The notes beneath the pieces are model-generated. The model had not been told where the DNA came from and searched no databases. It saw only the letters and a program-made list of their open reading frames with translations. From sequence record OM386653.1: 64,000 bases of DNA, one strand, 5' to 3'. The stretch comes from Escherichia phage vB_EcoM_ESCO8. The number at the start of each line of letters is the position of its first letter. Positions within the stretch are counted from its first letter, which is position 1. Made by a program: the position numbers and the translations under genes. Positions 56,588-57,345 of the stretch are shown here, one piece after another.

Positions 56588-57345
56588 TTATGAATCTGGA
56601 ATTAATTTTTTCATAGCCGTATCCAGTTCTCTTATTGTTCTCTGTTGACCACGTTTAATATCCGCATCTTTAACGTGAAGATCTTGTACATAGTCTTCAA
56701 ATGTTAAATATTCATAAATTTTAAGTAGATAATCTACACCGTAATTATCTAACGAGGACAAGGTTTCGGAGGTATTCTTAATTACCTTACAAAGAATTAC
56801 TTCATACCATGTCAAGCTAAGGGTTTGTGAGGCAATTTCAATTGCTGATTTAATTGCCGGACTTAACTCTTCGCTAGAGTCTCTATTCCTTGAAATTGGG
56901 TCAACAGTTTTCCGAAACCTCGTTTGAAAAAAGGGGCATAGTTCACCTCAAGAACTTTTGCAGCTAAGTCAACAACTAATTCTGGGTGAGCAAAAAACAA
57001 TTCATCAAAATTATCGGAAACACTGTGACCTGCTTCTGTGTAAACTTCATCTAAAATTTTACGTAAGAATGTGGCTAAGTTTTTTTCTTCCAGACCACTG
57101 AATAATTGGATCAGCGCCATAGCAATACGAGCTTCTAGATCTTCGTCTGCTGACATAAGAGCAGTATTATACATTGTCATAGGAACAGCTAGTACACTAC
57201 CTAGTTCTGGAATCCTTTCAAAAACTTTAGTTGGACTCCACTTGAGAACTCTAAATTTTACACTGCGTCCTTCATCCAGATCAATTTCAACCATTACTTC
57301 TGGACGAGCAAATTTTGCAATAGTATTATCTTTTTGTTGTTCCAT
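56588..57345 (-). CDS. tail assembly chaperone, predicted -1 frameshift fusion product (G-T type)
   Basis: Slippery heptamer T_TTT_TTC at 56932-56926; the -1 frame is open from the heptamer through ORF 56588-56815, which has only a TTG start and no RBS. Confidence 0.45.
56863..57345 (-). CDS. tail assembly chaperone (zero-frame product)
   Basis: 160-aa acidic ORF between tube and tape measure genes. Confidence 0.55.
   Translation of the reverse strand: MEQQKDNTIAKFARPEVMVEIDLDEGRSVKFRVLKWSPTKVFERIPELGSVLAVPMTMYNTALMSADEDLEARIAMALIQLFSGLEEKNLATFLRKILDEVYTEAGHSVSDNFDELFFAHPELVVDLAAKVLEVNYAPFFKRGFGKLLTQFQGIETLAKS
56926..56932 (-). other. putative -1 programmed ribosomal frameshift site (CC[T TTT TTC] on the minus strand)
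   Basis: Canonical X_XXY_YYZ heptamer in the zero frame, 22 codons before the stop of ORF 56863-57345. Confidence 0.5.

What the first reader, a model, noticed from the sequence alone, without database searches (positions are those of the whole stretch)
56588..57345. Programmed -1 frameshift (T_TTT_TTC) fusing the two tail assembly chaperone ORFs
On the minus strand the zero-frame codons GCC CCT TTT TTC AAA contain a canonical slippery heptamer at 56932-56926. I translated the -1 frame by hand from the heptamer to the annotated start of ORF 56588-56815 and found no stop. That downstream ORF has no ATG (only TTG) and no RBS, consistent with expression solely as a frameshift extension. Position between tube and tape-measure genes matches the conserved G/GT-type chaperone frameshift of tailed phages.
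Basis: partly seen in the sequence, partly recalled or inferred. Interest (0 to 1): 0.45.

Follow-up and report, generated by a model that had tools for sequence, protein, structure and literature searches.

The report
Tail chaperone -1 frameshift, unannotated
This phi92-like E. coli phage almost certainly makes a second, longer tail-assembly chaperone by letting ribosomes slip back one base on a run of U's, the well-known lambda G/GT trick, which public records of this phage group have missed.

Summary
On the minus strand, T_TTT_TTC (56932-56926) sits in X_XXY_YYZ register at codons 139-140 of the 160-codon chaperone gene (phi92 gp132, Pfam Phage_TAC_15). The -1 frame is open from 56947 to the stop at 56590-56588, giving a 252-aa fusion (...YAPFF|QTRFRK...).

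The heptamer alone is weak evidence (chance about 0.12). What carries the case:
- A 112-codon open -1 frame (P about 6e-7), unique among 84 in-register heptamers in the window.
- Complete conservation. All 39 unique related loci (G identity 22-99%; Stephanstirmvirinae, Vequintavirinae, Plateaulakevirus, IMG/VR contigs) keep an in-register slippery heptamer and a 102-131-codon -1 frame ending just before the next gene (normally the tape-measure gene).
- The X base is always T, although its codon encodes Cys, Pro or Ser.
- The downstream ORF has no Shine-Dalgarno sequence and no conserved start. Its conserved core begins about 18 residues upstream of the annotated TTG.

Additions: a second overlapping heptamer, C_CCT_TTT (56935-56929), gives the same product. 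A GAGGUG lies 11 nt upstream. There is no downstream structure.

None of the 20 public records inspected annotates the slippage. This is a new member of a well-known kind, and the value is better annotation rather than new biology.

The parts
56863..57345 (-). Gene G: tail assembly chaperone, short form (160 aa; phi92 gp132 orthologue). ATG start with a GAGAGG Shine-Dalgarno sequence.
56926..56932 (-). Slippery heptamer T_TTT_TTC in X_XXY_YYZ register (G codons 139-140, Phe-Phe). This is the proposed -1 shift site.
   Evidence: Present in register in 36 of 39 unique related loci. The X base always comes from a T-ending codon, whether TGT (Cys), CCT (Pro) or AGT (Ser).
56929..56935 (-). Second, overlapping in-register slippery heptamer C_CCT_TTT. 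A slip here gives the identical fusion protein.
   Evidence: Present in every Stephanstirmvirinae-like locus listed. It is the homologous-position heptamer in the divergent IMG/VR loci L044 and L051, which lack TTTTTTC. L051 also has an in-register AAAAAAC 11 codons further downstream.
56944..56949 (-). Internal Shine-Dalgarno-like GAGGTG, 11 nt 5' of T_TTT_TTC. A possible stimulator of the -1 shift; inferred, not shown.
   Evidence: It is the strongest anti-SD pairing in the whole G gene (-6.9 kcal/mol; no other window in G is as strong). 23 of 36 unique relatives score -6 kcal/mol or better at this position, and 10 lack it. The 9-14 nt spacing rule for -1 stimulators is from PMC5009743.
56588..56926 (-). 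-1 frame extension ('T' part): 112 codons plus the stop at 56590-56588. The predicted GT CDS is join(57345..56926, 56926..56588) on the minus strand, 252 aa.
   Evidence: frame open from 56947. phrog_16039, E 3.2e-45; the phrog_10409 match begins 10 residues upstream of the annotated TTG. In the alignment of -1 ORFs, a conserved RFR follows the slip, then a variable linker, then a conserved core starting about 18 residues before the annotated start.
56588..56815 (-). The ORF as annotated in public records (phi92 gp133, TTG start, 75 aa). Reinterpreted as the 3' two-thirds of the T extension, not a separate gene.
   Evidence: No SD sequence. Other records place the start differently (ALITA, 54 nt further downstream) or leave the region unannotated.
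57389..57868 (-). Tail tube gene (phi92 gp131) immediately upstream. Context for the chaperone pair.
   Evidence: Pfam PF11681 KPP10_Orf10 and phrog_280. Annotated 'potential tail tube' in phage Paula.
54589..56568 (-). Tape measure protein gene (phi92 gp134) immediately downstream. TTG start with a GGAGG SD sequence, 20 nt after the T stop.
   Evidence: phrog_16051 tail length tape measure protein. Anti-SD pairing -9.5 kcal/mol. Spacing.

Best explanation
The region encodes the two forms of a tail assembly chaperone from one start codon.

Most ribosomes translate gene G (57345-56863) to its TAA and make the 160-aa short form. A minority slip back one nucleotide while tRNAs occupy the U-rich site C_CCU_UUU_UUC (56935-56926). 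These ribosomes continue in the -1 frame for 112 more codons to the stop at 56590-56588, just before the tape-measure gene. The product is a 252-aa G-T fusion: 140 aa of G, then QTRFRK...IPDS.

Slippage at either of the two overlapping heptamers gives the same protein. T_TTT_TTC is the more widely conserved of the two.

The slip appears to depend on the slippery sequence itself. It may be helped by an SD-like GAGGUG 11 nt upstream, and there is no downstream RNA structure.

By analogy with lambda gpG/gpGT, the two forms would act together, in a fixed ratio set by slip efficiency, to coat the tape-measure protein and recruit tube subunits. Neither form would end up in the virion.

What is shown: the frame geometry, the conservation, the absence of start signals, and the chaperone family membership. 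What is inferred: that slipping actually occurs, how efficient it is, the role of the SD-like element, and the binding partners of G and T.
For: - Geometry. The heptamer is in register and the -1 frame is open for 112 codons to just before the TMP gene.
- Uniqueness. Of 84 in-register heptamers in 61 putative genes of the window, only this pair has a -1 extension of 50 or more codons. P(112 open codons) is about 6e-7.
- Conservation in cultured phages. In 12 of 12 cultured relatives with G identity 27-83%, TTTTTTC is in register. The -1 frame opens 2-5 codons upstream and runs 109-131 codons, to a stop 12-148 nt before the TMP start. Vibrio phage S4-7 has A_AAT_TTT instead.
- Conservation more widely. 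All 46 IMG/VR loci and 2 Aeromonas phages show the same architecture. L044 and L051 use C_CCT_TTT.
- Selection on the RNA. Across 39 unique loci, the codon supplying X is TGT (Cys) x21, CCT (Pro) x13 or AGT (Ser) x2, always ending in T. Phe-Phe is always TTT-TTC (36 of 36). The neighbouring Tyr codon varies (TAC 24, TAT 12) and Val uses four codons.
- No independent start. The anti-SD pairing of the window's TTGs is +1.3 and -1.4 kcal/mol, against -6.6 to -9.5 for the flanking genes. No start in 13 relatives is better than -4.2 kcal/mol. In Hena1 and VLCpiM5a the first possible start is at codon 80 or 84.
- Upstream conservation. The conserved T core starts upstream of the annotated TTG.
- Precedent. 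A homologous -1 PRF with a conserved GTTTTT motif is proposed for the sister clades Vandenendeviridae and Andersonviridae (PMC12846349). The G/GT paradigm is reviewed in PMC5009743.
Against: - There is no protein-level or ribosome-profiling evidence for this phage group. The rV5 genome and proteome paper mentions neither a chaperone nor a frameshift.
- There is no downstream stimulatory structure: fold z = -0.69, and 0 consensus pairs across 12 relatives. Efficiency may therefore be low, although lambda G/GT also works at a low level.
- The SD-like element is missing in 10 of 36 unique relatives, and it is confounded with coding for Leu-Glu-Val.
- One of the two peptide patterns used to retrieve the IMG/VR loci included the FF motif. 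That biases the set toward TTY-TTY at the site. It does not force the wobble T or TTT-TTC.
- Many loci are phylogenetically close, so the 39 unique loci are fewer than 39 independent observations.
- The T-domain model was unusable (pLDDT 46), so nothing structural supports a T function.
Confidence: 0.9

Rival explanations
1. Two separate genes, as annotated. gp133 would be translated independently from the TTG at 56815 (or the TTG 54 nt downstream, as in phage ALITA), perhaps by reinitiation after the G stop 48 nt upstream. The long open -1 frame upstream would be incidental.
For: Public records annotate it this way. A TTG exists at 56815. The tube and TMP genes of this phage also start with TTG.
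Against: - Neither TTG has SD pairing (+1.3 and -1.4 kcal/mol, against -8.7 and -9.5 for the genuine TTG starts).
- The start position is not conserved. Hena1 and VLCpiM5a have no start before codon 80 or 84 of the T ORF.
- Annotators disagree on the start or leave the region blank.
- The -1 frame stays open across the variable linker in all 39 unique loci. Amino-acid conservation extends upstream of the TTG, right up to the slip site (RFR motif).
Confidence: 0.04
2. Transcriptional slippage instead of ribosomal slippage. RNA polymerase would add one extra U on the T6 run, giving an mRNA subpopulation in which standard translation yields the same ...PFFQTR... fusion.
For: A one-base insertion in the U run would give exactly the same protein (worked out from the sequence). 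Transcriptional slippage is a known recoding route in bacteria (PMC5009743).
Against: - The run is only 6 T. Efficient slippage is generally reported for longer homopolymer runs (own knowledge).
- Conservation is register-specific: the heptamer is always in the X_XXY_YYZ phase of the G frame. RNA polymerase has no need for that.
- Three lineages use heteropolymeric heptamers with only four T's: CCCTTTT in L044 and L051, and AAATTTT in S4-7. These suit tandem tRNA re-pairing but not polymerase slippage.
Confidence: 0.04
3. No functional recoding. The heptamer is a chance occurrence, and the region between G and TMP is a decaying or non-coding remnant.
For: An in-register heptamer in a 28-codon overlap has roughly a 12% chance expectation (derived). 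No experimental evidence exists.
Against: A 112-codon open -1 frame has P about 6e-7. It is maintained, together with a slippery site, in every relative down to 22% G identity. The T core is conserved at the protein level.
Confidence: 0.01

Closest known systems
Bacteriophage lambda gpG/gpGT tail assembly chaperone -1 frameshift (Levin, Hendrix & Casjens 1993; Xu, Hendrix & Duda 2004, 2013, 2014; reviewed in PMC5009743)
   Same: Two overlapping ORFs lie between the major tail/tube gene and the tape-measure gene. [quoted passage not shown] The second ORF has no initiation signals of its own. No downstream structure was detected here, and I recall (own knowledge) that lambda needs none. The expected products are a short major form and a long minor form.
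   Different: The heptamer differs: U_UUU_UUC (plus an overlapping C_CCU_UUU) rather than lambda's G_GGA_AAG (own knowledge). The host phage is a contractile-tailed myovirus of about 148 kb, not a siphovirus. G belongs to Pfam Phage_TAC_15, and the Pfam scan of G matched only that family. A possible 5' SD-like element is present here. Efficiency and binding partners are untested.
Predicted -1 PRF in the TAC locus of Vandenendeviridae (Pakpunavirus Adele) and Andersonviridae (Felix O1- and Moogle-like phages), with an invariant GTTTTT motif (PMC12846349, Dec 2025)
   Same: These clades are evolutionarily related myovirus lineages with a syntenic tail module. They share a poly-T slippery motif near the 3' end of TAC-N. 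The downstream region is routinely mis-annotated as a hypothetical protein or an intergenic gap. The -1 frame is uninterrupted across all alleles. The Vequintavirinae relatives examined here read G_TTT_TTT_C, which contains GTTTTT.
   Different: In the passages I read, that paper analysed 56 Vandenendeviridae alleles and 231 Andersonviridae genomes at this locus. It did not analyse Stephanstirmvirinae, Vequintavirinae or Plateaulakevirus there. In the phi92 clade the base before the T run is C, not G, which creates a second in-register heptamer. tblastn with the window's G protein found no record from those families in the organism counts or in the 60 rows listed, so the relationship is remote.
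Phage P2 E/E+E' tail chaperone frameshift (Christie et al. 2002; cited as [B141] in PMC5009743)
   Same: It is a contractile-tailed phage of E. coli. A -1 shift on a T-rich heptamer (TTTTTTG, own knowledge) joins two small ORFs upstream of the tape-measure gene. The review reports efficiency 2-3 times that of lambda.
   Different: P2 is a small temperate phage, and its proteins were not among the hits to this G. The last base of the heptamer differs (G versus C).
E. coli dnaX -1 frameshift (A_AAA_AAG with a 5' SD-like element and a 3' stem-loop)
   Same: An SD-like element lies 9-14 nt 5' of a -1 shift site (PMC5009743). The window has GAGGUG with an 11-nt spacer.
   Different: There is no 3' stem-loop here. 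The SD-like element is not universally conserved among relatives. The biological purpose is unrelated.

Membership tests
G/GT-type tail assembly chaperone with programmed -1 frameshift (Xu, Hendrix & Duda 2004) | The gene pair lies between the major tail (tube) protein gene and the tape-measure protein gene. | tested here: met
   Order on the minus strand: sheath 59333-57927, tube 57868-57389, G 57345-56863, T to 56588, TMP 56568-54589.
G/GT-type tail assembly chaperone with programmed -1 frameshift (Xu, Hendrix & Duda 2004) | The second ORF is in the -1 frame relative to the first and overlaps its 3' end. | tested here: met
   The -1 frame is open from 56947 and overlaps G by 85 nt. The +1 frame is open for only 7 codons.
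G/GT-type tail assembly chaperone with programmed -1 frameshift (Xu, Hendrix & Duda 2004) | A slippery sequence that allows tRNA re-pairing in the -1 frame lies inside the overlap, in register. | tested here: met
   T_TTT_TTC at 56932-56926 and C_CCT_TTT at 56935-56929, both in register and both inside the open -1 window.
G/GT-type tail assembly chaperone with programmed -1 frameshift (Xu, Hendrix & Duda 2004) | The downstream ORF lacks its own translation initiation signals. | tested here: met
   There is no ATG before codon 105. The TTGs have anti-SD pairing of +1.3 and -1.4 kcal/mol. No conserved or SD-backed start exists in 13 relatives.
G/GT-type tail assembly chaperone with programmed -1 frameshift (Xu, Hendrix & Duda 2004) | The arrangement (slippery site plus open shifted frame) is conserved among diverged relatives. 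| tested here: met
   61 of 61 loci (39 unique), with G identity down to 22%. Wobble-base conservation holds under three different amino acids.
G/GT-type tail assembly chaperone with programmed -1 frameshift (Xu, Hendrix & Duda 2004) | The upstream protein is a tail assembly chaperone by family or fold. | tested here: met
   [not shown]
G/GT-type tail assembly chaperone with programmed -1 frameshift (Xu, Hendrix & Duda 2004) | Both a short and a frameshifted long product are made, in a fixed ratio, and both are needed for tail assembly. | not testable with these tools
   This needs proteomics, a reporter assay or genetics. No published data were found for the phi92 or rV5 clades.
G/GT-type tail assembly chaperone with programmed -1 frameshift (Xu, Hendrix & Duda 2004) | The G part binds the tape-measure protein and the T part binds the major tail protein (lambda, per PMC5009743). 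| not testable with these tools
   The single-sequence T model was unusable (pLDDT 46). No complex modelling was available.
dnaX-type stimulated -1 frameshift | An SD-like sequence lies 9-14 nt 5' of the shift site. | tested here: inconclusive
   It is present in the window (GAGGUG, 11-nt spacer, -6.9 kcal/mol, the strongest in the gene) and in 23 of 36 unique relatives. It is absent in 10, and it is confounded with Leu-Glu-Val coding.
dnaX-type stimulated -1 frameshift | A stimulatory stem-loop or pseudoknot lies 3' of the shift site. | tested here: not met
   The MFE of the 86 nt downstream is -15.2 kcal/mol, z = -0.69 against shuffles. RNAalifold on 12 relatives gives 0 pairs.
Transcriptional slippage recoding | A long homopolymeric A or T run is the conserved element, with no requirement for codon register. 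| tested here: not met
   The run is only T6. Register is strictly conserved. L044, L051 and S4-7 use heteropolymeric CCCTTTT or AAATTTT.

The most novel reading that the evidence does not exclude
In the phi92 clade the shift site may be a functional unit larger than a heptamer. It would consist of two overlapping in-register slippery heptamers (C_CCU_UUU_UUC) that give ribosomes two consecutive chances to slip into the same frame, plus an SD-like GAGGUG at the stimulatory distance. Together these could set a G:GT ratio well above lambda's roughly 30:1 without any RNA structure. The wobble C before CCU is kept under Ala, Gly and Ser codons in the clade, which hints that the second heptamer is itself under selection.
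Probability: 0.25. Interest if true: 0.35.

Novelty: new member of a known kind. Interest (0 to 1): 0.25.

Why it matters
The mechanism is textbook, so its presence is expected rather than surprising.

The practical value is in annotation. None of the 20 GenBank and RefSeq records I opened annotates a joined CDS here. They span phi92, rV5, PVP-SE1, Phapecoctavirus relatives (ukendt, ESCO5, SKA64), Certrevirus, Mydovirus and Plateaulakevirus. The T region is called a 'hypothetical protein' with inconsistent starts, or it is left as a gap of about 290 nt. The tblastn searches found 336-360 phage genomes with this module, and many of them are candidates for phage therapy or biocontrol.

The data extend the conserved poly-T chaperone frameshift, recently proposed for Vandenendeviridae and Andersonviridae, to Stephanstirmvirinae, Vequintavirinae and Plateaulakevirus. 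This supports common descent of the tail module across these large lytic myoviruses.

The data also provide a clean natural test case: a U-rich shift site with no 3' structure, with or without a 5' SD-like element depending on the lineage.

Tried and rejected
- Downstream stimulatory structure. I folded 86 nt 3' of the site (z = -0.69) and ran RNAalifold on 12 relatives (0 pairs). Nothing was found. The conserved GGTTTCG 9-12 nt downstream is better explained by dual coding (GFG in the G frame, RFR in the T frame).
- Other slip sites in G. A_AAA_AAC at 57085-57079 is in register, but the -1 frame closes at 57061. Rejected.
- The +1 frame. It is open for only 7 codons past the overlap. Rejected.
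- Fused products. I searched 5.8 billion proteins with the 252-aa fusion for annotated or natural in-frame G-T fusions. All 45 hits were G-only proteins of 151-175 aa, with at most 60% coverage. Nothing was found. This neither helps nor hurts.
- Records that list only 'tail assembly chaperone' under the T match (ESCO5, SKA64, 241Ecol014PP). These turned out to be unannotated gaps, not joined CDSs.
- Fold of G. Foldseek against the PDB gave no significant hit (best E 1.9). PDB sequence-profile searches gave only marginal hits.
- Fold of T. Single-sequence AF2 gave pLDDT 46, which is unusable, so I did not run a fold search on it.
- Literature. I searched for a frameshift claim in phi92, rV5, PVP-SE1 or phAPEC8 and found none in the held library. 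Subscription papers, such as the phi92 genome paper, were not searchable.
- The 'hypothetical tRNA' annotated inside the phi92 sheath gene. ARAGORN finds nothing at the equivalent window position.

Full report
**What the window is**

The region belongs to a phi92-like Escherichia myovirus (Justusliebigvirus, Stephanstirmvirinae). It is 99.5% identical to phage ALITA and 98.3% identical to phi92 over 4.9 kb.

On the minus strand the genes run in this order:
- sheath, 59333-57927
- tube, 57868-57389
- a 160-aa ORF, 57345-56863 (phi92 gp132)
- a 75-aa TTG-initiated ORF, 56815-56588 (gp133)
- the tape-measure gene, 56568-54589 (gp134)

The 160-aa protein is a tail assembly chaperone. It matches Pfam PF21822 Phage_TAC_15 (E 3.4e-22) and phrog_3840 (E 8.5e-54).

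**Checking the observation**

The zero frame reads GCC CCT TTT TTC AAA. TTTTTTC occupies 56932-56926 in X_XXY_YYZ register, at codons 139-140 of 160.

The -1 frame has a stop at 56950-56948 and then none until 56590-56588. It is the frame of the annotated small ORF. A slip would give a 252-aa product: 140 residues of G followed by QTRFRK...IPDS.

Two things were missed:
- An overlapping second heptamer, C_CCT_TTT (56935-56929), is also in register. Working through the codons shows it would give exactly the same protein.
- An in-register A_AAA_AAC lies at 57085-57079, but it is a dead end because the -1 frame closes at 57061.

**Is it more than chance?**

In-register XXXYYYZ heptamers are common in this AT-rich genome (38% GC). 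There are 84 in 19,126 codon positions of 61 putative genes. That implies roughly a 12% chance of finding one in a 28-codon overlap (with my arithmetic). The heptamer alone therefore proves little.

The combination is a different matter. Of those 84 heptamers, only the two in this gene are followed by 50 or more open -1 codons (112 and 113). The next best is 31. With a measured -1-frame stop density of 0.12, 112 open codons has P about 6e-7.

**Comparative test**

I opened 12 cultured relatives whose G proteins are 27-83% identical to the window's. They were KP2025, PsgM04F, ukendt, FBKp34, TH18, PVP-SE1, Hena1, VLCpiM5a, rV5, CR8 and F5M2A, plus phi92 itself. In every one:
- TTTTTTC is in register.
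- The -1 frame opens 2-5 codons upstream of it.
- The -1 frame runs 109-131 codons, to a stop 12-148 nt before the tape-measure start.
- The +1 frame is short.

Three further sets show the same architecture:
- Vibrio phage S4-7 (22% identity) has A_AAT_TTT a few codons upstream of the equivalent position.
- Two Aeromonas Plateaulakevirus genomes, found only through the T part, again have T_TTT_TTC and a 130-131-codon -1 ORF.
- A scan of IMG/VR gave 46 loci, 35 of them unique, and all have the same architecture. Two divergent loci (L044, L051) lack TTTTTTC but carry C_CCT_TTT at the same place.

Pooling everything gives 61 loci, 39 of them unique. Of the unique loci, 36 use T_TTT_TTC.
- The codon that supplies the first T encodes Cys (TGT, 21), Pro (CCT, 13) or Ser (AGT, 2), and it always ends in T.
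- Phe-Phe is always TTT-TTC.
- The adjacent conserved Tyr is TAC in 24 loci and TAT in 12, and the nearby Val uses four codons.

This is selection on the nucleotides, not on the protein.

Two caveats apply. One of the two retrieval patterns contained the FF motif. Many of the loci are closely related to each other.

**The downstream ORF is not an independent gene**

- Anti-SD pairing is -6.6 (sheath), -8.7 (tube), -7.8 (G) and -9.5 (TMP) kcal/mol. It is +1.3 and -1.4 for the two TTGs that annotators have used for gp133.
- In 13 relatives, no candidate start in the T frame is better than -4.2 kcal/mol, and the positions are not conserved.
- Hena1 and VLCpiM5a have no start before codon 80 or 84, which would delete the conserved core.
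- The alignment of -1 ORFs shows a conserved RFR directly after the slip. A variable, often Gly/Ser-rich linker of differing length follows. Then comes a conserved core that begins about 18 residues upstream of the annotated TTG.
- The phrog_10409 match likewise starts upstream of that TTG.
- Annotators disagree. phi92 starts gp133 at 56815 and ALITA starts it 54 nt later. ukendt, Hena1, VLCpiM5a, ESCO5, SKA64 and 241Ecol014PP leave a gap of about 290 nt. rV5 calls an ORF that overlaps G.
- None of the 20 records opened carries a joined CDS.

**Stimulators**

There is no downstream structure. The fold z-score is -0.69, and RNAalifold finds no conserved pair in 12 relatives.

Upstream, GAGGUG (56949-56944) lies 11 nt before T_TTT_TTC. 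It is the strongest anti-SD match in the whole G gene, at -6.9 kcal/mol. The Atkins et al. review gives 9-14 nt as the stimulatory spacing for -1 shifts (PMC5009743).

Of 36 unique relatives, 23 have -6 kcal/mol or better at this position. Certrevirus, Mydovirus, Plateaulakevirus, L044 and L051 do not. The element also coincides with Leu-Glu-Val codons. It is a plausible clade-specific enhancer, not a defining part of the signal.

**Rivals**

- Independent initiation is contradicted by the start-signal and conservation data above.
- Transcriptional slippage on the T6 run would yield the same protein. It does not explain the strict codon register, or the heteropolymeric heptamers (CCCTTTT, AAATTTT) in three lineages.
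- Chance is excluded by conservation.

**Comparison with what is known**

This is the lambda G/GT paradigm. According to the review, the G part binds the tape-measure protein, the T part binds the major tail protein, the two forms are made at about 30:1, and neither is in the virion. The arrangement is widely conserved in long-tailed phages, and P2 shifts 2-3 times more efficiently (PMC5009743).

A December 2025 paper proposes the same -1 PRF for the related Vandenendeviridae and Andersonviridae. It reports an invariant GTTTTT motif and the same habit of mis-annotating the downstream region. In the passages I read, it did not analyse the phi92 or rV5 clades at this locus (PMC12846349).

I found no paper in the held library that states a frameshift for phi92, rV5, PVP-SE1 or phAPEC8. 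A search of 5.8 billion proteins with the fusion returned only G-sized proteins.

**Verdict**

It is a new, unannotated member of a very well-known kind.

It is useful for correcting several hundred phage annotations, and it extends the poly-T chaperone frameshift across a large group of lytic myoviruses. It is not surprising to a specialist. What remains inferred is the actual slipping, its efficiency, which of the two heptamers is used, and the role of the SD-like element.

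Noticed in passing
window 57366-57385 (minus strand), between the tube stop (57389) and the G start (57345): An intrinsic-terminator-like hairpin, AAAGGGCAGAAATGCCCTTT, followed by ATTTTT. It scores as a terminator on both strands. Phage Paula's record annotates terminators at the same place. It could attenuate transcription, so that the chaperones and the TMP are made at lower levels than sheath and tube.
   Followed up: partly
[not shown]
   Followed up: no
L065 1867-3024 (Aeromonas phage 4L372XY, NC_048772): An endonuclease gene of about 1.2 kb is inserted between the T stop and the tape-measure gene. 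It is absent from the sister phage 4L372D (L066). It looks like a homing-endonuclease insertion placed precisely after the chaperone frameshift unit.
   Followed up: no
phage records MG065645, MG065639, MG065652 and others: 23 records named 'Campylobacter phage' (host C. jejuni) matched the G query. Those listed carry chaperone loci 99-100% identical to phi92-like E. coli phages, or 29% identical like the rV5-type E. coli phages listed beside them. Likewise, a 'Pseudomonas phage PsgM04F' and an 'Acinetobacter phage ABPW7' sit among the Phapecoctavirus-like hits. The host labels look doubtful.
   Followed up: no
L001 2519-2611 (phi92 NC_023693 66790-66882), roughly window 58290-58382: The phi92 record annotates a 'Hypothetical tRNA' inside the tail sheath coding sequence. 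ARAGORN finds no tRNA in window 58100-58600, so the feature is probably spurious.
   Followed up: yes
window 57085-57079 (minus strand): There is a second canonical in-register heptamer, A_AAA_AAC, at codon 88 of gene G. A -1 slip there would terminate at 57061 after a few codons, so at most it would yield a truncated product. It is not conserved: KP2025 has AAAAAAT, and others have none.
   Followed up: partly
window 54560-54583 (minus strand): A strong terminator-like hairpin (10 bp, 6 of them GC) with a T-run lies immediately after the tape-measure stop. A near-consensus sigma-70-like promoter (TTGACA, 18-nt spacer, TAAAAT, with a TG extension) follows at 54550-54521. Together these suggest a transcription-unit boundary after the TMP gene.
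   Followed up: no
window 57868 and 56568 (minus strand): Both the tube gene and the tape-measure gene start with TTG, each backed by a strong SD sequence (-8.7 and -9.5 kcal/mol). TTG starts are therefore genuinely used in this module, which is why a TTG alone cannot decide the status of gp133.
   Followed up: yes
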